A stretch of 64,000 nt of DNA, taken from Escherichia phage UPWr_E1. The notes below the pieces were generated by a model, which was not told the DNA's origin, searched no databases, and was given only the letters and a program-made list of their open reading frames with translations. Where the stretch lies: the sequence record PP418985.1; one strand, written 5' to 3'. Position numbers and translations under genes: made by a program. Positions 56,914 to 64,000 of the stretch are shown here, piece by piece (the first letter of the stretch is position 1; each line of letters begins with the position of its first letter).

Positions 56914-57108
56914 ATGCAAGTTTATACCAATAGTAATAAAGGCAATGATATCACACCGGGAAAGATGTATGATTTTACCCCAGCACGAGACGACGAACAT
57001 CCACCGACCATCGGATATATTGAAGATGATGCGGGGTTTCGTATTACGATCCTTCTTGATGGTGGATGTTCTCATCTTCGCGGTGATCATTGGGAGTTAG
57101 TACCATGA
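56914..57108 (+). CDS. small protein, paralog family member 1
   Basis: KMYDFTP ... DGGCSHLRGDHWELV. Confidence 0.5.
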   Translation: MQVYTNSNKGNDITPGKMYDFTPARDDEHPPTIGYIEDDAGFRITILLDGGCSHLRGDHWELVP

Positions 57109-57350
57109 AATATGTAATTGCACCTTATAGTAACCGCAAGTATATTACACCGAATACACTGTATGAATATACACCACATGAAAGATTTGCGAATAGTGGT
57201 TATATCCGTGATGATAAGGGACACCAGATTTTTATTTGCCTCAAAAATTGTGCACACTTAGACGGTCGAACATGGACACTGGTCGAAGAACCAAAACAAC
57301 CTGAGAATAAAGGTCTTTGGAACGCAATTAAAAAATTCTTGAAAAAGTAG
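57105..57350 (+). CDS. small protein, paralog family member 2
   Basis: ATGA overlap; TLYEYTP ... KNCAHLDGRTWTLV. Confidence 0.5.
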   Translation: MKYVIAPYSNRKYITPNTLYEYTPHERFANSGYIRDDKGHQIFICLKNCAHLDGRTWTLVEEPKQPENKGLWNAIKKFLKK

Positions 57351-57379
57351 TTGACACACATGTTCGGGGGTAGTAATAT
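57351..57379 (+). promoter_or_regulatory. PeSL-like early promoter module 6
   Basis: TTGACA-17-TAATAT; hairpin GGGGG-tagtaatata-CCCCC; leader CATCGAAACAACAAAGGAG. Confidence 0.55.
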
Positions 57380-57410
57380 ACCCCCATCGAAACAACAAAG
57401 GAGTATTAAA

Positions 57411-57749
57411 ATGAGTGTTAAAGAAGTATTTGTTTATACTGACTATGACGGGTGCGCCTATCTCACTGCCGGAAAACTTTACCATTGTGAGATTATTCAT
57501 GGTACGCTAGGTCGAATTATGTGCGATCCGATTACAAAATTGTGGAAAAACAATCCTAGTGAGCGAGAAACTATTATTAACCTAGATTCAGACGGTTGTT
57601 CACATTTGGACTATAGAAAATGGCATATCGTGACACATGATGCTTATGGTATTCATCTTGCTACTAAAGAATTAACTATAGAGAAATTCAAGTTTAAAGA
57701 AATCCCGTTTGTATACTGGCTTCGCAATTTGTTTAAGAAAGGAGAATAA
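57411..57749 (+). CDS. small protein, paralog family member 3 (duplicated module)
   Basis: KLYHCE ... SDGCSHLDYRKWHIV. Confidence 0.5.
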   Translation: MSVKEVFVYTDYDGCAYLTAGKLYHCEIIHGTLGRIMCDPITKLWKNNPSERETIINLDSDGCSHLDYRKWHIVTHDAYGIHLATKELTIEKFKFKEIPFVYWLRNLFKKGE

Positions 57750-57750
57750 A

Positions 57751-58173
57751 ATGGAAACAATTAACGTACATGTTCGCCGTAGCAAGCTGCGCAGATTCTT
57801 CGAAACTGAAATGCGTAAGACTAACGCACAAATCAAAGAAAAGTGCTTGAATAATGGTTACGGTGAGTATATTTTCATTCGCTTTAGTCCGCATATGATC
57901 GACCGTCTAACCGACCGCCATATCGATGAACATAAGACAATGGAACTATTCAATAAGGTAGAAACTCGTTTGCCGGAGATCTTCGACTTCCTGAAAATGG
58001 AAGACCGACCTAATCGATTAGAAATCACTGACGGTAACATGTGGATCGGGATGACAGTAGACCTAATTGAAGACGGTAAGCCATATCACGGTCTATGCTG
58101 TCGAATGATTATAGAGAATCCAAAACGACTGGCGGGTAAAATGTCGGCTGTTGTTTTGAAAGTGGACCAATAA
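57751..58173 (+). CDS. hypothetical protein (140 aa)
   Basis: GGAGAA RBS then ATG 57751. Confidence 0.55.
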   Translation: METINVHVRRSKLRRFFETEMRKTNAQIKEKCLNNGYGEYIFIRFSPHMIDRLTDRHIDEHKTMELFNKVETRLPEIFDFLKMEDRPNRLEITDGNMWIGMTVDLIEDGKPYHGLCCRMIIENPKRLAGKMSAVVLKVDQ

Positions 58174-58195
58174 TGGAGATTGGTTAAAATAATGC

Positions 58196-58224
58196 TTGAC
58201 TTTCTGGTGATAGGGCTATATTAT
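58196..58224 (+). promoter_or_regulatory. sigma70-type promoter (TTGACT-17-TATTAT)
   Basis: upstream of the secreted transglycosylase gene. Confidence 0.5.
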
Positions 58225-58258
58225 GGAATCAGAAAGTTAAGCCAAACAGGAGAAATTA

Positions 58259-58849
58259 ATGTTAAAAGTTCTAAAAGCGATAGTATTGAGTCTGTCACTA
58301 GCCGTTGGTGCTACACACGCATCGACTAGCGCACCGATCAAAAAAGCGCCGATAGACAACTTTACAGCACACCAACTAGATAATTTACATTTCGCCTATC
58401 AATATGGCGAACAATTCGAGAAAAGCGGTAAGTTGAAAAATGACCATCCGAATATTCGCTATGACGGAAAGGGTTTAGGCCACATCCTGGCGGGTATCGC
58501 ATGGCAAGAATCAAGCGCGGGTGCAAACTTAGCACCAAAGAAAAATCATCATGCTTATGGATTATTTCAAAATTACCTTAAAACGGTGAAAGCGAAAAAT
58601 GCAAAGCGCGGTGTTAAAATGAGTGATCGCCAGACTATCAAATTTATCATGAATCGCGAGGTTTCTGCATTCTACGCGATGGATGAGTTAGCATACTGGC
58701 TGGATGTTCGAAACGGTAATATCCGACTCGCGCTAGCTTCTTACAATGCAGGATGGAACTATAAAGCCGGTTTAGGTTATGCTGATGACGTACTAAAAAA
58801 GGCTAACCATCTAAAGAGTAAAGGCATTCTTAAAACTAAACGCTATTGA
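58259..58849 (+). CDS. secreted lytic transglycosylase (SLT-domain) protein
   Basis: signal peptide MLKVLKAIVLSLSLAVGATHA; SLT motifs AWQESS...YGLFQ and YNAG. Confidence 0.7.
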   Translation: MLKVLKAIVLSLSLAVGATHASTSAPIKKAPIDNFTAHQLDNLHFAYQYGEQFEKSGKLKNDHPNIRYDGKGLGHILAGIAWQESSAGANLAPKKNHHAYGLFQNYLKTVKAKNAKRGVKMSDRQTIKFIMNREVSAFYAMDELAYWLDVRNGNIRLALASYNAGWNYKAGLGYADDVLKKANHLKSKGILKTKRY

Positions 58850-58856
58850 GGAATAT

Positions 58857-59216
58857 ATGAAAAAGTTGACAATAATTGCTATGATTGCTATGATGTTCTC
58901 GGCTGGTGCGCTTGCTAGTAATGAGCGCCCTTATCCAAAGTTCGAATATAAAGGATTTGAGATCAACAAAAAGATCATTAAAACTTTCTGTGATGATGAT
59001 AACATGTGTAGTGATTTTATCGCGCTCGAACTTGATGAAGCATACAAACAAGGTCGAGACGAAAAACGAAAAAATCGAGCATGGGATCTGAGTATTGCCA
59101 GCTTTGCTAAAACAAAACGCAACCTATGTGATACTGCCCCTGATAAGCAATTATGCTTTGCTTATCGCGACACACTGTTAAGCCGTTTTATGGCTGGGTT
59201 GTCTTCCCGTGACTAA
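58857..59216 (+). CDS. secreted hypothetical protein with 4 Cys
   Basis: signal peptide MKKLTIIAMIAMMFSAGALA. Confidence 0.55.
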   Translation: MKKLTIIAMIAMMFSAGALASNERPYPKFEYKGFEINKKIIKTFCDDDNMCSDFIALELDEAYKQGRDEKRKNRAWDLSIASFAKTKRNLCDTAPDKQLCFAYRDTLLSRFMAGLSSRD

Positions 59217-59231
59217 TGAGAGGTTTATATT

Positions 59232-59687
59232 ATGATTATTGATACTGTAAAGGGCGATCTCATCGCCCTGTTTAAACAAGGAAACGGTCATTTAATTCAT
59301 GGTTGTAATTGTTTTCATACTATGGGCGCTGGTATTGCTGCAAAGATCGCGAAAGAGTTCCCGCAAGCGTTAGAGATTGACAAGCAAACTTCTCGCGGTA
59401 AGGTAGAAAAGCTGGGTGGGTTTAGTGTCTGGACGCATCAAGTTAATGGTTATAACTGGTGCGGGGTGAATCTCTATACCCAATTCCGACCGGGTCCAAA
59501 TGCTGAATATGGTGCTATCCTGAAAGGATTTGAGACTATCAATGATGTTTTTGAAGGTGCTATACAGCCTTTCTATATTCCTAAAATCGGTTGCGGTATC
59601 GGTGGCCTTGAGTGGGAATGTGTAGAAGAGATCATTAATATTGCTACTCCAGACATTAACATTGTGGTGGTTGAATATGACAAATAA
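59232..59687 (+). CDS. macro-domain-like protein (putative ADP-ribose binding/processing)
   Basis: LIHGCNCFHTMGAGIAAKI and IPKIGCGIGGL resemble macro-domain motifs (VNAAN..GGGV.GAI and P.IG.G..G); tentative. Confidence 0.4.
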   Translation: MIIDTVKGDLIALFKQGNGHLIHGCNCFHTMGAGIAAKIAKEFPQALEIDKQTSRGKVEKLGGFSVWTHQVNGYNWCGVNLYTQFRPGPNAEYGAILKGFETINDVFEGAIQPFYIPKIGCGIGGLEWECVEEIINIATPDINIVVVEYDK

Positions 59688-59871
59688 AAATGATCTATAT
59701 TCCGGTGATTGGGTGAAACGTCAGTCTGTAGAAAACGTAACTTGTTTTCGTTGTTTCACTGAATACAATATAAAAACCGCTCCTGTTAGTGTTCCAAAGA
59801 CAGACGGGTATTATATTAAAGAACCGCATTGCCCTAAATGTAAATGTCGATTATATTGGAGTCATCTATGA
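59677..59871 (+). CDS. small zinc-ribbon-like protein
   Basis: CFRC ... CPKCKC; ATG 59677. Confidence 0.45.
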   Translation: MTNKNDLYSGDWVKRQSVENVTCFRCFTEYNIKTAPVSVPKTDGYYIKEPHCPKCKCRLYWSHL

Positions 59872-60086
59872 AGAAGCCTAATACCGCTCACATGAAAGAA
59901 AACTGCCGATGTGTTAGATGTGGTTGGCCTATCATCTTCACTTGCTGTAACGACGATATGCAGCGTTTACCGTGGGGAATGTGGGATTGGTGGATGTATT
60001 GTAGCAATAAAGGATGCCTCCACCACGAAGGCGAAGGAGTATTTCAGGAAACGCCTGATTGGGTGGAGGTGATAGAAAATGCTTGA
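59868..60086 (+). CDS. small Cys-rich protein
   Basis: GGAG RBS then ATG 59868; CRCVRCGW ... CC ... C..KGC. Confidence 0.45.
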   Translation: MKKPNTAHMKENCRCVRCGWPIIFTCCNDDMQRLPWGMWDWWMYCSNKGCLHHEGEGVFQETPDWVEVIENA

Positions 60087-60372
60087 GACTATCATTAACC
60101 TTGTTATGTGGACTTTTAATTTCGTTATTGTTATTATGGCGGGTATTGAGATTGTCAAGCAATATCTGTTACAATCCAGAAATAAACATGTTGTAATTGA
60201 TATGGACTCTCAAGGAAATAAGCTGATCCGGTTAGAATATGGTCGGGAATATTGGGTAGGTTATCCAAAGACACTACGCGGATTTATCTTTGCTATGGGT
60301 GTTTGCTTCTTTTTCCTTTGTATCTGGGTTTATGTTGGTTTATGTCTTGCTGGATTTTTGGAGATTAATTAA
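60079..60372 (+). CDS. membrane protein (97 aa)
   Basis: two hydrophobic segments; stop overlaps tk start. Confidence 0.5.
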   Translation: MLETIINLVMWTFNFVIVIMAGIEIVKQYLLQSRNKHVVIDMDSQGNKLIRLEYGREYWVGYPKTLRGFIFAMGVCFFFLCIWVYVGLCLAGFLEIN

Positions 60373-60968
60373 TGGCGCAACTATATTTCTACTATGCATC
60401 TATGAACGCTGGCAAATCAACTTCCCTGTTACAAAGTGCTTATAACTATACCGAACGTGATATGCGAGTATTAATTCTTAAGCCAGCGATTGATAATCGA
60501 GATTCAGAAAGTGAAGTTGTTTCCCGAATTGGTCTAAGTGCTCCAGCGATCACCTTCACTAAATCGGATGATCTTTTCGACTTGGTTTATCGTGAATCAC
60601 TAGGTAAGCGTAGACCGGATCGCTGGCGTCCAGATGCTGTATTTGTAGATGAAGCCCAATTTATGACTAAAGAGCATGTTTTAGGCTTGTGTGCGCTTGT
60701 TGATGATGCAAATATCCCTGTACTGTGCTATGGCCTTCGCACTGACTTTCAGGGCAATCTATTTGAAGGATCTGCGGCATTGATGGCATTTGCTGATAAA
60801 CTGGTCGAAATGAAGGGTATTTGTCATTGCGGTAAGAAAGCAACAATGGTCCTTCGTGTAGATAAAGAGGGTAATGTTATTCGCGATGGTGCTCAAATAG
60901 AAGTTGGTGCAGAGGATAAATATGTTTCTGTGTGCCGTAAACATTTTATTGACGGCACTACCAACTAA
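60372..60968 (+). CDS. tk: thymidine kinase
   Basis: P-loop MNAGKSTSLL; VFVDEAQF; C-terminal CHCG...C zinc site; matches recalled T4 Tk. Confidence 0.9.
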   Translation: MAQLYFYYASMNAGKSTSLLQSAYNYTERDMRVLILKPAIDNRDSESEVVSRIGLSAPAITFTKSDDLFDLVYRESLGKRRPDRWRPDAVFVDEAQFMTKEHVLGLCALVDDANIPVLCYGLRTDFQGNLFEGSAALMAFADKLVEMKGICHCGKKATMVLRVDKEGNVIRDGAQIEVGAEDKYVSVCRKHFIDGTTN

Positions 60969-60995
60969 GAGTTAATCATAAATAAAGCCCCAGAT

Positions 60996-61003
60996 TATAA
61001 ATA
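60996..61003 (+). promoter_or_regulatory. T4-type late promoter TATAAATA (rI-like gene)
   Basis: exact TATAAATA 34 nt upstream of the ATG at 61037. Confidence 0.5.
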
Positions 61004-61036
61004 TAACTGAATATTTTCAATCTGGGGGAATGACTT

Positions 61037-61339
61037 ATGTCATTTATTCGTAAAACTCTAACAGCGGCAATATGCTTGACTGCGGTCGGAAGTGTCAGTG
61101 CTGATCAATATGATCCAACTGGTGACTTTACTGATTATTTCGACGGTGCAATGATAGTATATGTAAACAAAATATCTCCTTCCATTGAAACCAGCCAGAA
61201 ATTTCATGCCCATATTATGAAGATGTATGCTCGTAGTAAATGTATGGATTCTAAGCAGTGTTTTATTATGGGGGAATATGCCGCACAACAATTTGTTATG
61301 TTGCATAATGTGGAGAATCGAGAACATGAAATTCAGTGA
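61037..61339 (+). CDS. rI: RI-like lysis inhibition regulator (periplasmic)
   Basis: signal-anchor then DP...F...YV.K.S......F...M..Y....C.....C pattern as in recalled T4 RI; adjacent to tk as in T4. Confidence 0.5.
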   Translation: MSFIRKTLTAAICLTAVGSVSADQYDPTGDFTDYFDGAMIVYVNKISPSIETSQKFHAHIMKMYARSKCMDSKQCFIMGEYAAQQFVMLHNVENREHEIQ

Positions 61340-61724
61340 TTTTCGAAAGACGTCCGAAGAGGGAAAAGCTAATAAAGTTGACCGCTTTATCGGTGAATGT
61401 CTGATGAGTGTTACTTATATGCATTCTGCGCATTTTGGGGTAACTGGTCCTGGATCTTATGCAAAACATAAGGCTCTAGAAGAGTTCTATCTTGAAATGC
61501 AAGAATTGGTTGATAATTTCACTGAAACCAATATTGGGATCACTGGTCGTTATCAGCCAACGTTGGTCGTCCGCAAGGAGATTAGCGAAATTGCCTATTT
61601 GCAAGAGTTAACGCAAATGGCTAGTGAGATTTATAATGATGTTGATAGCTCGTTACAGAGCGTTTTAGACGATATAAAAGTTCTATGCTTTAAAACAATT
61701 TATAAACTCACTCGACTGGCTTAA
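61326..61724 (+). CDS. hypothetical protein (132 aa)
   Basis: GAGAA then ATG 61326; 14-nt overlap with rI-like ORF. Confidence 0.5.
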   Translation: MKFSDFRKTSEEGKANKVDRFIGECLMSVTYMHSAHFGVTGPGSYAKHKALEEFYLEMQELVDNFTETNIGITGRYQPTLVVRKEISEIAYLQELTQMASEIYNDVDSSLQSVLDDIKVLCFKTIYKLTRLA

Positions 61725-61745
61725 TGTCAGTCACAGGGGGGATAC

Positions 61746-63893
61746 ATGCCAGCAGAAATTAAAAACACTACAATTAACTCACAAATTTGGCTTCCTCATA
61801 CTTTTGAATGTTCTATTGTTGCTGAGTCGGAAGACCCAGAGAAAAGACGAAAAGGTTATTTGTGGAAAAAGAATGATAAGTTGATCACCATGACAGATGG
61901 TCCATCTTTTCCACTAAAATCTGTTAAAGAGGAAGATAAAACAGGTTGGTCTGTTAATGTTCGTGGTTTTGCTCAAGATGATGAAAATCTTTCTGGCGAA
62001 TCCGTAGATATCGGCACGGAAAACTTCACCTTTGAACTTTTTGATAATCCATATGTGGAACATGTATACCCGCCGACGTCTTTTAATATTGGTGATGAAA
62101 TCAAGGCAAAAATTGTTTTCCGTAGTCATATCCAGCCTAATATTTCGGTTGACCTTTATTATAATGATGGTTTGGTTGATTCCGTTGATGGTGATCTGGG
62201 GTTAGACCATCGTGAATTTAAAATTGCAAAATTCGCGTGGCCTGAATTTTCCGGTACATATAAAATGGAATTGAGTGATGAACATGGTGAGGTTAAATTT
62301 GTATATCCTTTCTATGCAAACATCACTGAAAATAAGGAAGTATTCAACGTACAAAAATATGCACCTGCCTATTTTACCGTAGATGACGATGCACCGAATC
62401 AGGCGGAATATACTATTGTCCGATATCGACTAGAGCGTAATGATGGTAGTTTGGTTTATGAGTCTAAAGATAAGACTTTGTATGTAACTAAACATGCTCA
62501 AGAGTCTGACGCCGGAGAATATGTTGCTTTTGTTCGTGCATATAAGGTTGTTAATGGTCCTGGTGCTGGGACCGAATATGTGGATGGTGAAAAACATCGA
62601 TTCACAGTTAACGTAAAAGAAAACGAATTTTTTAGCCGTGATTTTAGTGCTATTGATTTTCGTTATCCTTCTGGATCTACTGTAAACCTTGATATGCCAG
62701 TGATGCAAGCCGATAGCTCATGGAATCGTCATTATGGTATGCTTACTAACAACGTTTACTTTACGTGGATGCTTGGCGGTAAGAAACTACAAAGTAAAAA
62801 ATATGGCGATGAGGGTTATGACCGGATAACGCTATCTGGATTGCAATATGATAACAGCGTTGCGCTTCAATTGTTGGTTGCTCCTGCCAATCCAGCGGGT
62901 GAACAGGTGATTCCTAACGGTCGCCCATTATTTTATGATCGTCGTATGCTTGAGATTTATGATAAAGAGTATGATTATCGTAATATTGAAGTGGGTGAAC
63001 CTATTGTTCTCAAGATCGTAGATCCTGAACCGCCAGCTAGTGATGATCCTGAACAAACGCGAACTTTGGTTATCACCAAAAACGACGTTAAAGTAACGGA
63101 ACTTCCGCTAGGTACTAAGGAATATAAGATCACCGACTCTGCGGACAGAGACCATAACGGCATCTGGGCGCATGAATATCGTGATAGTCCGAGTAAAGAT
63201 CCATTTAGCGCACATACTGATTTTGATATTGCTGGTCGTTCGACCTATCATGTTGAAGTAGTGCCGAATATGGAGTTTGACGGTCCTCATCCGGTACAGG
63301 TTACGGAAGGTGATACCCTGACGCTAGAAGCAACCATGCTAAAACCGCCAGCCTCATATGTTCCGACTTATGAGTTTAGTAAAAACGGTGTTAAACTGGA
63401 CATGGAGGACTCACGAAGTCCGATTTACCGTAAAGCAAACGTTACGCTAGAGGATGCTGGTGTTTATCGATTTGTTGCATTTGCTGATAAAAACAGCAAC
63501 GATGAACTAGATCCTGGCGAGATTGTCGGGTATACAAAATATGTTCAGGTTGTAGTTAATAAACGTCCTGTGCGACCGGATGAACCTAGACCGGAAGTTA
63601 AAATTGTTACTATGTTTAACGAGTTTAGCAAAGGCCGATTTAGTCCGTGTCCGTATTGGGTGATTGATGAGCTTGTCGAATTGATGGAAGACCCGCATGG
63701 TTGGATGGATAAACTTGAAGATTCTGTCTACTATGACTGGCAAATCACTATCTTTAATGAGTTCCTAAAAGGTAAGGATTTGTATCTTCAAGATTCGTGT
63801 AATGGTTATTGGGCGATTGTCCGCCAGAAGGATATGTCTATTGAAACTGGCTATGGGCGATTCAAACACTACTATACAAATGGACGTGAATAA
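61746..63893 (+). CDS. large Hoc-like protein: Ig/beta-sandwich repeats plus Hoc-type C-terminal domain
   Basis: GGGGGG RBS; GEYVAFVRAYKV and GVYRFVAFAD Ig-like motifs; C-terminal PYWVIDELVEL...DSCNGYWAIV resembles the C-termini of 3933..6476 and 6521..7753. Confidence 0.6.
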   Translation: MPAEIKNTTINSQIWLPHTFECSIVAESEDPEKRRKGYLWKKNDKLITMTDGPSFPLKSVKEEDKTGWSVNVRGFAQDDENLSGESVDIGTENFTFELFDNPYVEHVYPPTSFNIGDEIKAKIVFRSHIQPNISVDLYYNDGLVDSVDGDLGLDHREFKIAKFAWPEFSGTYKMELSDEHGEVKFVYPFYANITENKEVFNVQKYAPAYFTVDDDAPNQAEYTIVRYRLERNDGSLVYESKDKTLYVTKHAQESDAGEYVAFVRAYKVVNGPGAGTEYVDGEKHRFTVNVKENEFFSRDFSAIDFRYPSGSTVNLDMPVMQADSSWNRHYGMLTNNVYFTWMLGGKKLQSKKYGDEGYDRITLSGLQYDNSVALQLLVAPANPAGEQVIPNGRPLFYDRRMLEIYDKEYDYRNIEVGEPIVLKIVDPEPPASDDPEQTRTLVITKNDVKVTELPLGTKEYKITDSADRDHNGIWAHEYRDSPSKDPFSAHTDFDIAGRSTYHVEVVPNMEFDGPHPVQVTEGDTLTLEATMLKPPASYVPTYEFSKNGVKLDMEDSRSPIYRKANVTLEDAGVYRFVAFADKNSNDELDPGEIVGYTKYVQVVVNKRPVRPDEPRPEVKIVTMFNEFSKGRFSPCPYWVIDELVELMEDPHGWMDKLEDSVYYDWQITIFNEFLKGKDLYLQDSCNGYWAIVRQKDMSIETGYGRFKHYYTNGRE

Positions 63894-63906
63894 AATATAA
63901 TCAAAA

Positions 63907-63930
63907 GCCATCCGAAAGGGTGGCTTTTTT
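63907..63930 (+). terminator. rho-independent terminator
   Basis: GCCATCC-gaaa-GGGTGGC followed by TTTTTTCG. Confidence 0.75.
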
Positions 63931-63942
63931 CGTTTTTAGGTG

Positions 63943-63971
63943 TTGACAACCGGAATAGGGTATAGCATAAT
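63943..63971 (+). promoter_or_regulatory. PeSL-like early promoter module 7 (gene start lies beyond window end)
   Basis: TTGACA-17-CATAAT, then leader CACACATCGACAACAAAGGAGAATCAAA. Confidence 0.6.
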
Positions 63972-64000
63972 GCACACATCGACAACAAAGGAGAATCAAA

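What the first reader, a model, noticed from the sequence alone, without database searches (positions are those of the whole stretch)
59232..60086. Macro-domain-like protein followed by two small Cys-rich (zinc-ribbon-like) proteins
The 151-aa protein has LIHGCNCFHTMGAGIAAKI and IPKIGCGIGGL, which resemble the two ADP-ribose-binding loops of macro domains. Phage macro domains could reverse ADP-ribosylation-based host defense. The two overlapping downstream ORFs carry CxxC pairs. The assignment is tentative.
Basis: inference. Interest (0 to 1): 0.5.

Follow-up and report, generated by a model that had tools for sequence, protein, structure and literature searches.

The report
Known phage anti-DarT macrodomain gene (Tk.4/AdfM)
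This is the RB49-type phage copy of T4 gene tk.4, a macrodomain enzyme recently shown in T4 to protect the phage from the bacterial DarTG2 DNA-ADP-ribosylating defence. It is followed by two small zinc-binding phage proteins of unknown function, so the finding is real but already described.

Summary
The three ORFs exist as described. The window is a Krischvirus, an RB49-like T4-type coliphage.

**Macro domain.** ORF 59232-59687 (151 aa) scores above Pfam's Macro threshold. Its AlphaFold2 model (pLDDT 97.4) matches TARG1, Poa1p and DarG macrodomains. It is the syntenic ortholog (44% identity, between vs and tk) of T4 Tk.4. RB49 already annotates it as tk.4, and phage W115 as "macro domain protein".

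**Function.** A 2025 preprint renamed T4 tk.4 as adfM because its deletion sensitises T4 to DarTG2.

**Added detail.** The position of the DarG/TARG1 catalytic lysine holds a glutamine (Q84, in 96 of 97 relatives). Streptomyces SCO6735 has the same arrangement, and its Q85A mutant loses thymidine-ADP-ribose hydrolysis.

**Small ORFs.** Their likely starts are 59677 (64 aa) and 59868 (72 aa). They belong to Pfam Phage_zn_bind_2 and Phage_zn_bind, both of unknown function. They are not homologs of T4 tk.3, tk.2 or tk.1, and T4 lacks them. Their linkage to the macro gene reflects T4-like synteny plus one macro+Zn1 cassette shared with Vequintaviruses. Elsewhere their neighbours vary.

Interest is low.

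The parts
59232..59687 (+). tk.4/adfM ortholog: 151-aa stand-alone macrodomain of the ALC1/TARG1/DarG-like class. Candidate active-site residues are H23, N26 and Q84; the phosphate loops are M31-GAGIA-36 and I119-GCGIGG-125.
   Evidence: Pfam Macro 28.7 bits, above GA 22. 44% identity to T4 Tk.4, E 9e-45, with the same vs-to-tk synteny. RB49 annotates it as tk.4 and W115 as 'macro domain protein'. AlphaFold2 pLDDT 97.4. Foldseek matches: TARG1 E 4e-11, DarG TM 0.78-0.80. Best NCBIfam and PADLOC hit is DarG, N-terminal macro part only.
59677..59871 (+). Zn1: 64-aa four-cysteine zinc-ribbon protein (C23, C26, C52, C55). Pfam PF23903 Phage_zn_bind_2, phrog_4864. Function unknown. It overlaps the macro gene by 11 nt.
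   Evidence: PF23903 E 1.1e-23; phrog_4864 E 2.7e-34. Corresponds to RB49p090. Found in 233 phage records. Cysteines invariant.
59868..60086 (+). Zn2: 72-aa Cys/His- and Trp-rich protein (C15, C18, C27, C45, C50, H53 conserved). Pfam PF23895 Phage_zn_bind, phrog_2306. Function unknown. ATGA overlap with Zn1.
   Evidence: PF23895 E 8.2e-34; phrog_2306. Corresponds to RB49p089. Found in 786 phage records. AlphaFold2 pLDDT 77.5, mostly beta-strand, with no PDB fold match.
58857..59216 (+). Context: vs (valyl-tRNA synthetase modifier) homolog. It is the conserved upstream neighbour of tk.4 in T4-like phages.
   Evidence: phrog_1256 E 1.8e-33; RB49 and T4 annotation.
60079..60372 (+). Context: 97-aa hydrophobic protein (annotated 'putative membrane protein' in W115). 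It overlaps Zn2 by 8 nt and abuts tk.
   Evidence: phrog_16027 E 3.8e-59; W115 annotation.
60372..60968 (+). Context: thymidine kinase (tk), the conserved downstream anchor of the tk.4-to-tk interval.
   Evidence: Pfam TK E 9.6e-52.

Best explanation
The 151-aa protein is the Krischvirus ortholog of T4 Tk.4 (AdfM), a stand-alone macrodomain ADP-ribosyl glycohydrolase.

**Proposed mechanism.** It is made from the vs-tk.4-...-tk gene string, whose genes overlap or abut (the macro gene itself starts 15 nt after vs). It binds ADP-ribose attached by the host toxin DarT2 to thymidines in single-stranded phage DNA and hydrolyses the bond. This restores replicable DNA and neutralises the DarTG2 defence.

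**Shown here.**
- Macro fold.
- Orthology and synteny with T4 tk.4.
- Intact ADP-ribose-binding loops.
- A conserved H23/N26/Q84 constellation, with Gln at the position where DarG and TARG1 carry the catalytic Lys. SCO6735 has the same Gln-type site.

**Taken from the literature.**
- T4 tk.4 deletion sensitises T4 to DarTG2.
- PhiKZ AdfM and SCO6735 remove thymidine-linked ADP-ribose from DNA.
- SCO6735 Q85A is inactive.

**Inferred.** This protein has the same substrate and the same protective effect.

**The two small genes.** The two downstream zinc-binding proteins are separate accessory phage genes of unknown function. They occupy the variable tk.4-to-tk interval and are not required partners of the macrodomain.
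For: **Family and fold.**
- Pfam Macro above threshold.
- PDB sequence hits to Mtb DarG 5m3i (E 4.8e-8), BT1257, SCO6735 and TARG1. The profile search sharpens these to 1e-13 to 1e-16.
- AlphaFold2 pLDDT 97.4.
- Foldseek top hits TARG1, Poa1p and DarG, TM 0.76-0.80.
- Best NCBIfam and PADLOC families are both DarG.

**Orthology.**
- 44% identity over the full length to T4 Tk.4, in the same position between vs and tk.

**Function of relatives.**
- T4 tk.4 is the single significant hit in the DarTG2 screen, and a clean knockout is sensitive to DarTG2.
- PhiKZ AdfM removes T-ADPr in vitro.

**Active site.**
- N26 is present in 97 of 97 relatives and Q84 in 96 of 97.
- Q84 aligns with SCO6735 Q85, TARG1 K84 and DarG K80.
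- SCO6735 Q85A abolishes dT-ADPr hydrolysis.

**Independence of the zinc proteins.**
- T4 lacks both Zn1 and Zn2, yet its Tk.4 protects.
- Zn1 neighbours vary across phages.
Against: - No experiment exists on this protein or on any Krischvirus.
- The T4 evidence is genetic, comes from a preprint, and includes no enzymology of Tk.4.
- Identity to T4 Tk.4 is only 44%.
- The catalytic Lys of DarG and PhiKZ AdfM is absent. Activity therefore rests on analogy with SCO6735, whose longer Lys-bearing mobile loop is missing here (a 5-residue gap).
- Close structural neighbours also include Poa1p, an ADPr-1''-phosphate phosphatase, and TARG1, a protein de-ADP-ribosylase. Fold alone does not fix the substrate.
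- Iyer et al. (PMC9503650) argued that most phage macrodomains act on small ADPr derivatives.
Confidence: 0.7

Rival explanations
1. The macrodomain acts on small soluble ADP-ribose derivatives rather than on modified DNA. Candidates are ADP-ribose-1''-phosphate from RNA repair, O-acetyl-ADP-ribose, or ADPr-derived immune signals. This is the older 'A1pp phosphatase' annotation.
For: - RB49, T4 and PHROG annotate it as 'phosphatase, A1pp motif'.
- Poa1p, an ADPr-1''-P phosphatase, is among the best structural and sequence matches.
Against: - The annotation was transferred from motif similarity and never tested.
- The only functional data for the orthologous gene point to DarTG2.
- The best curated family matches are DarG.
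- The Gln-type site matches a proven DNA dT-ADPr hydrolase.
Confidence: 0.12
2. The macrodomain erases or tunes ADP-ribosylation (or RNAylation) written by the phage's own Alt/ModA/ModB-type transferases on host proteins.
For: - T4-type phages are known to encode ADP-ribosyltransferases (background knowledge; mentioned).
- TARG1 and SCO6735 also de-modify proteins.
Against: - No ART gene lies next to the macro gene.
- T4 tk.4 is dispensable on plain K-12 and was depleted in the screen specifically with DarTG2.
- I did not test whether this phage carries alt or mod genes.
Confidence: 0.06
3. The macrodomain and one or both zinc-binding proteins form a functional module. For example, a Zn protein could bind DarT2 or ssDNA and so substitute for the DarT-binding C-terminal domain that DarG has and the phage protein lacks.
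For: - The genes overlap, which suggests translational coupling.
- Macro+Zn1 is the only block in window 57001-62000 shared with Vequintaviruses, at 66-76% nt identity. This implies joint transfer.
- In 14 of 17 IMG/VR loci, a Tk.4-type macro gene ends at or within about 930 bp upstream of Zn2, and in 13 of them within about 360 bp. Salmonella phage S16 (overlapping) and RB14 (about 200 bp) show the same arrangement.
Against: - T4 lacks both Zn proteins, yet Tk.4 suffices there.
- Zn1 elsewhere follows an Acb1-like 2H enzyme, an HD hydrolase, tk, DnaB, Toprim or a P-loop protein. In four T4-like loci it lies about 1.1 kb downstream of tk.4, and in a fifth about 0.6 kb.
- Outside T4-like phages, Zn2 is not near a macro gene. 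The Zn2 linkage therefore looks like inherited gene order.
- Neither Zn protein matches the DarG profiles.
Confidence: 0.1

Closest known systems
T4 Tk.4 = AdfM (anti-DarT factor Macrodomain; bioRxiv 10.1101/2025.11.20.689424)
   Same: Full-length ortholog: 44% identity, 151 vs 155 aa. Same position between vs and tk. Same HGCNCFHTMG, NLYTQF and IGxGIG motifs, including Gln at the catalytic position.
   Different: The downstream small genes differ. T4 has tk.3 (DUF7202) and tk.2/tk.1 (DUF7438) instead of Zn1, Zn2 and the membrane protein. No functional data exist for the Krischvirus copy.
Streptomyces coelicolor SCO6735 (PDB 5E3B), ALC1-like macrodomain that cleaves thymidine-linked ADP-ribose on DNA
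   Same: Gln at the TARG1-K84/DarG-K80 position (Q84 vs Q85). His and Asn are also shared (H23/N26 vs H24/N27). Stand-alone macrodomain.
   Different: Only about 23% identity in the structural alignment. The longer mobile loop after the Gln, carrying K89 and K94, is absent here. G24 replaces the proposed catalytic V25. SCO6735 is a cellular protein, not a phage one.
DarG antitoxin of DarTG2 (Mtb 5M3I, T. aquaticus 5M31/5M3E; NCBIfam NF048014)
   Same: Best-scoring curated family. Same macro subclass, conserved Asn (N26 = DarG N22), and the same expected substrate.
   Different: There is no C-terminal DarT-binding domain; only profile positions 2-141 of 338 are matched. Catalytic Lys80 is replaced by Gln. 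There is no adjacent darT. The score of 48 bits is far below the 250-bit cut-off.
PhiKZ gp104 AdfM (chimallivirus DarG2-like macrodomain; PMC13309987)
   Same: A phage-encoded stand-alone macrodomain that counters DarTG2 by removing ADP-ribose from DNA.
   Different: PhiKZ AdfM keeps the DarG-type Lys (K78) and is imported into the phage nucleus. The Tk.4 family is Gln-type, so this is a separate lineage that shares the name.
Human TARG1/OARD1 (PDB 4J5R)
   Same: Best Foldseek match: E 4e-11, TM 0.76-0.82, 28-29% identity.
   Different: The TARG1 Lys84/Asp125 dyad is absent: Q84, and Gly at the Asp position.
Pfam PF23903 (Phage_zn_bind_2) and PF23895 (Phage_zn_bind)
   Same: Zn1 and Zn2 are full-length members, at 83 and 116 bits against a cut-off of 27.
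   Different: No difference: both are families of unknown function, so membership gives no mechanism.

Membership tests
Macro domain (Pfam PF01661) | Profile score at or above the curated gathering threshold over the whole domain | tested here: met
   28.7 bits vs 22; residues 22-135 cover profile positions 1-118 of 118.
Macro domain (Pfam PF01661) | Mixed alpha/beta macro fold that superposes on solved macrodomains | tested here: met
   AlphaFold2 pLDDT 97.4, pTM 0.91. 204 PDB matches at E<=0.001, nearly all macrodomains among the 50 listed. Top hits are TARG1 and DarG, TM 0.76-0.80.
Macro domain (Pfam PF01661) | Gly-rich ADP-ribose/phosphate-binding loops | tested here: met
   M31-G-A-G-I-A36 and I119-G-C-G-I-G-G125. 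G34, G120 and G122 are invariant in 97 relatives.
Macro domain (Pfam PF01661) | Binds ADP-ribose | not testable with these tools
   Requires ITC, a crystal structure or another binding assay.
T4 Tk.4 / AdfM (T4-type anti-DarTG2 macrodomain) | Orthology to T4 Tk.4: full-length similarity and conserved position | tested here: met
   44% identity, E 9e-45, over 150 aa. The order vs-tk.4-...-tk is the same in T4, RB14, S16, RB49 and the window.
T4 Tk.4 / AdfM (T4-type anti-DarTG2 macrodomain) | Loss of the gene sensitises the phage to DarTG2 | not testable with these tools
   Shown only for T4.
T4 Tk.4 / AdfM (T4-type anti-DarTG2 macrodomain) | Hydrolyses thymidine-linked ADP-ribose on ssDNA | not testable with these tools
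   Not yet shown even for T4 Tk.4. Shown for PhiKZ AdfM and SCO6735.
DarG antitoxin (NCBIfam NF048014 / PADLOC DarG) | Two-domain protein: N-terminal macro plus C-terminal DarT-binding domain, scoring above the equivalog cut-off | tested here: not met
   48.4 bits vs cut-off 250. Only profile positions 2-141 of 338 are matched, and the protein ends at residue 151.
DarG antitoxin (NCBIfam NF048014 / PADLOC DarG) | Catalytic lysine (T. aquaticus K80) | tested here: not met
   The aligned residue is Q84; Gln is present in 96 of 97 family members.
DarG antitoxin (NCBIfam NF048014 / PADLOC DarG) | Encoded next to a darT toxin gene | tested here: not met
   The neighbours are vs, Zn1, Zn2, a membrane protein and tk.
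SCO6735-type (Gln) ALC1-like DNA ADP-ribosyl hydrolases | Gln at the K84/K80 position, plus a conserved His-x-x-Asn in the first loop | tested here: met
   Q84 aligns with Q85, H23 with H24, and N26 with N27 in the phmmer alignment to 5E3B. Residue roles are taken from PMC9411070.
SCO6735-type (Gln) ALC1-like DNA ADP-ribosyl hydrolases | Extended Lys-bearing mobile loop after the Gln (K89, K94) that helps DNA binding | tested here: not met
   A 5-residue gap in the phage protein falls exactly there. The phage loop is RPGPNAEY.
TARG1 | Lys84/Asp125 catalytic dyad | tested here: not met
   Q84, and Gly in GCGIG where TARG1 has GCGLD.
Pfam PF23903 Phage_zn_bind_2 (Zn1) | Score above cut-off and four conserved Cys in two CxxC knuckles | tested here: met
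   83.3 bits vs 27. C23, C26, C52 and C55 are invariant in 8 homologs from 6 phage groups. Metal binding itself was not tested.
Pfam PF23895 Phage_zn_bind (Zn2) | Score above cut-off and conserved Cys/His ligand set | tested here: met
   115.9 bits vs 27. C15, C18, C27, C45, C50 and H53 are invariant. Metal binding itself was not tested.

The most novel reading that the evidence does not exclude
The small zinc-binding proteins may be working partners of the phage macrodomain rather than passengers. Zn1 travelled with the macro gene between Krischvirus and Vequintavirus, and Zn2 sits beside tk.4 in many T4-like genera. One or both could bind DarT2 or ADP-ribosylated ssDNA and so supply the toxin-binding function that DarG's C-terminal domain provides. 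More broadly, Zn1 also sits beside Acb1-like and Sir2/Nudix/NAD-salvage genes in GAP32-like jumbo phages, and beside an HD-family hydrolase in Mydoviruses. It could be a new anti-defence factor in its own right.
Probability: 0.1. Interest if true: 0.55.

Novelty: already known. Interest (0 to 1): 0.2.

Why it matters
**What the result achieves.** It confirms that a sequence-only reading correctly recognised a macrodomain and guessed its anti-defence role. The gene is, however, already annotated (tk.4 or 'macro domain protein'), and its T4 ortholog has been assigned to DarTG2 evasion. Related macro genes occur in 2731 of 50,697 phage records, so this is a common phage function.

**Two points that may be useful.**
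- T4-type AdfM proteins carry Gln, not the DarG/PhiKZ-AdfM Lys, at the catalytic position. The two phage protein groups called 'AdfM' probably use different chemistry, and SCO6735 rather than DarG is the better mechanistic model for the T4 type.
- Two widespread phage zinc-binding families of unknown function (233 and 786 phage records) sit in variable gene stretches next to known or candidate counter-defence genes (tk.4; for Zn1 also Acb1-like and NAD-salvage genes). They are cheap candidates for anti-defence screens.

Tried and rejected
- **Homology to T4 tk.3/tk.2/tk.1.** I tested whether Zn1 and Zn2 are the T4 counterparts. They are not: BLASTP E values were 2.2 and 16, and the T4 genes fall in other Pfam families, DUF7202 and DUF7438.
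- **Zn proteins as a split DarG C-terminal domain.** Neither the NCBIfam nor the PADLOC DarG model hits either protein.
- **Obligatory macro-Zn1 operon.** I examined 39 Zn1 loci. A macro gene lies within 4 kb in 15 of them, mostly T4-like or Vequintavirus. Immediate neighbours otherwise include an Acb1-like enzyme, an HD hydrolase, tk, DnaB, Toprim, Dam and a P-loop protein. The idea is rejected as a general rule.
- **Zn2-macro linkage outside T4-like phages.** It is absent in Dickeya phage JA11 and in loci L052-L054.
- **Fold assignment for Zn2.** The AlphaFold2 model has pLDDT 77.5. There is no PDB match at E<=0.001, and BFVD returned only its own homologs. The afdb50 library was unavailable.
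- **Deep homolog searches for Zn1 and Zn2.** The word-indexed protein database returned only 1 and 8 hits, some of them frameshifted. I used IMG/VR loci and phage tblastn instead.
- **Promoter and terminator scan of 57300-61400.** Counts were not clearly above the shuffled expectation: 17 vs 11.7±3.4 for promoters and 5 vs 2.6±1.5 for terminators. I make no transcription-unit claim beyond the gene overlaps.
- **Structured RNA.** No tRNA or Rfam match anywhere in the window.

Full report
**Where the window comes from.** Region 58200-61000 is 97-98% identical over its full length to RB49, FL04, kvi, W115 and about 55 other Krischvirus genomes, which are T4-type coliphages of the Straboviridae. 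The local gene order matches the T4 regB-vs-tk-rI block:
- regB (57751-58173)
- vs.1, an SLT-domain protein (58259-58849)
- vs (58857-59216)
- the 151-aa ORF (59232-59687)
- two small ORFs
- a 97-aa hydrophobic protein (60079-60372)
- tk (60372-60968)
- rI and rI.-1

**Observation.** All three ORFs are present. The quoted peptide motifs lie at residues 21-39 and 116-126 of the 151-aa protein.

The mechanical longest ORFs for the two small genes start at TTG 59641 and ATG 59844. These probably overstate them. The RB49 and W115 annotations use ATG 59677 (64 aa) and ATG 59868 (72 aa).

With those starts, every gene from the 151-aa ORF to tk overlaps or abuts the next (11, 4, 8 and 1 nt), the usual arrangement in T4-like phages. 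The 151-aa ORF itself starts 15 nt after vs, behind a GAGAGG Shine-Dalgarno-like motif.

Zn1 has two CxxC knuckles (C23/C26 and C52/C55). Zn2 has C15-x2-C18, C27, C45-x4-C50 and H53. All of these residues are invariant in homologs.

**The macrodomain.**
- *Profile evidence.* Pfam Macro is matched end to end above the curated threshold, at 28.7 against 22 bits. PHROG 335 ('phosphatase') matches at E 1e-61.
- *Solved structures, by sequence.* The single sequence finds Mtb DarG (5M3I, E 4.8e-8), Bacteroides BT1257, Streptomyces SCO6735 (5E3B) and human TARG1. A profile of 97 relatives raises these to E 1e-13 to 1e-16 and adds yeast Poa1p and T. aquaticus DarG.
- *Predicted structure.* An AlphaFold2 model built on that alignment has mean pLDDT 97.4. 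Foldseek against the PDB ranks TARG1 first (E 4e-11, TM 0.76-0.82), followed by Poa1p and the DarG macrodomains (TM 0.78-0.80).
- *Curated families.* The best NCBIfam and PADLOC families are both DarG, but only the N-terminal macro part is matched and the score is far below the equivalog cut-off.

The protein belongs to the ALC1/TARG1/DarG-like class.

**Identity with a known gene.** The protein is 44% identical over its full length to T4 Tk.4 (E 9e-45) and occupies the same slot between vs and tk. RB49 annotates it as 'tk.4, phosphatase, A1pp motif' and W115 as 'macro domain protein'. Phage FL04 encodes a 100% identical protein.

**Function, from the literature.**
- A transposon-sequencing study of T4 found tk.4 as the single significant hit on hosts expressing DarTG2. 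It confirmed this with a clean deletion and renamed the gene adfM (bioRxiv 10.1101/2025.11.20.689424). No enzymology of Tk.4 was reported.
- Independently, PhiKZ gp104, also called AdfM, was shown to remove DarT2-installed ADP-ribose from DNA and to protect chimalliviruses from DarTG2. It retains DarG-like N23 and K78 (PMC13309987).

**Active-site detail.** In alignments to TARG1, DarG and SCO6735, the residue at the TARG1-K84/DarG-K80 position is Q84. Gln is found there in 96 of 97 family members, and N26 in 97 of 97.

SCO6735 has Gln85 at this position. Q85A abolishes its hydrolysis of thymidine-linked ADP-ribose on DNA, and a water-mediated mechanism has been proposed (PMC9411070). H23 and N26 of the phage protein align with SCO6735 H24 and N27. 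The Lys-bearing extended loop of SCO6735 is missing.

The T4-type AdfM family is thus a Gln-type enzyme. It differs at the catalytic position from DarG and from PhiKZ AdfM. This is a sequence-level observation, and its mechanistic meaning is inferred.

**The two zinc-binding proteins.** Zn1 is a full-length member of PF23903 (E 1e-23; phrog_4864). Zn2 is a full-length member of PF23895 (E 8e-34; phrog_2306). Both are families of unknown function.

Neither is related to T4 tk.3, tk.2 or tk.1, which fall in DUF7202 and DUF7438. T4 lacks both.

*Zn1.* It occurs in 233 phage records.
- It directly follows the macro gene only in Krischviruses.
- In Vequintaviruses (FV3 and relatives) it follows the macro gene with one small ORF in between.
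- Macro+Zn1 (window 59227-59874) is the only part of a 5-kb stretch shared between these two unrelated lineages, at 66-76% nucleotide identity. This indicates joint horizontal transfer of the pair.
- In GAP32-like jumbo phages, Zn1 lies between an Acb1-like 2H phosphoesterase and a Sir2 plus Nudix-cREC pair, close to NAMPT and NMNAT genes.
- In Mydoviruses it follows an HD hydrolase.
- In other T4-like phages it lies downstream of tk.
- In further contigs it follows DnaB, Toprim or P-loop genes.

*Zn2.* It occurs in 786 phage records.
- In 14 of 17 IMG/VR loci a Tk.4-type macro gene ends at or within about 930 bp upstream, and in 13 of them within about 360 bp. S16 (overlapping) and RB14 (about 200 bp) show the same arrangement.
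- These 14 contigs are 116-175 kb (one is a 14-kb fragment), a size typical of T4-like phages, and S16 and RB14 are T4-like.
- In a Dickeya jumbo phage and in three divergent contigs, no macro gene is nearby.

The Zn2 model (pLDDT 77.5, mostly beta-strand) has no structural match outside its own family.

I conclude that the adjacency reflects inherited gene order in the variable tk.4-to-tk interval, plus one cassette transfer. It is not a demonstrated functional unit. A partnership cannot be excluded, and I give it about 10%.

**Verdict.** The most likely mechanism is removal of DarT2-installed ADP-ribose from thymidines in phage ssDNA by a Gln-type macrodomain hydrolase, with confidence about 0.7. 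The main alternative is action on small ADP-ribose derivatives, as in the old 'A1pp phosphatase' label. The small zinc proteins remain of unknown function.

Noticed in passing
window 61746-63893 (+): A 715-aa ORF lies directly after the rI.-1 homolog. Only 5 of 58 Krischvirus records align over 80% or more of the queried stretch 61700-64000 (Brandy 98.4%, SSG23, SFHK24, G2248, JK32). RB49-type genomes such as Phi1 and JEP8 align over only 14-20%. The only family signal is a sub-threshold Ig_3 hit. It is a strain-variable accessory gene of unknown function.
   Followed up: partly
window 59227-59874; L004 1785-2695; L014 3101-4198; L015 3286-4198: Macro+Zn1 is the only stretch of window 57001-62000 shared with Vequintaviruses (FV3 and two IMG/VR contigs), at 66-76% nt identity. 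This looks like a two-gene cassette exchanged between Straboviridae and Vequintavirinae. The Vequintavirus copies carry an extra small ORF (56 aa as annotated in FV3) between the two genes.
   Followed up: yes
L008 (Cronobacter phage GAP32) 1-6211; L007 (Erwinia phage pEa_SNUABM_44) 3523-5913: In GAP32-like jumbo phages the Zn1 homolog sits between an Acb1-like 2H phosphoesterase (PF23474, E 6e-16) and a Sir2 protein followed by a Nudix-cREC protein. NAMPT and an NMNAT/ADP-ribose pyrophosphatase lie about 2-4 kb away. This is an NAD/ADPr-centred, probably counter-defence, gene cluster.
   Followed up: partly
window 58259-58849 and 58857-59216 (+): Both the Vs.1 homolog (SLT lytic-transglycosylase domain) and the Vs homolog ('valyl-tRNA synthetase modifier') begin with signal-peptide-like hydrophobic N-termini: MLKVLKAIVLSLSLAVGATHAS and MKKLTIIAMIAMMFSAGALAS. 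That is odd for a protein said to modify a cytoplasmic tRNA synthetase.
   Followed up: no
alignment A1 (97 Tk.4-type macrodomains), column of window residue 84: One of the 97 relatives has Lys instead of Gln at the catalytic position. This could be a natural intermediate between the Gln-type (SCO6735/Tk.4) and Lys-type (DarG/PhiKZ AdfM) sites.
   Followed up: no
P0121, P0129: Metagenome-derived 'homologs' of Zn1 and Zn2 turned out to be frameshifted reads of the same genes. The C-terminal halves translate in another frame. They should not be used as evidence of sequence diversity.
   Followed up: yes
window 1-64000: There are no tRNA genes and no Rfam family above its gathering score anywhere in the 64-kb window.
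   Followed up: yes
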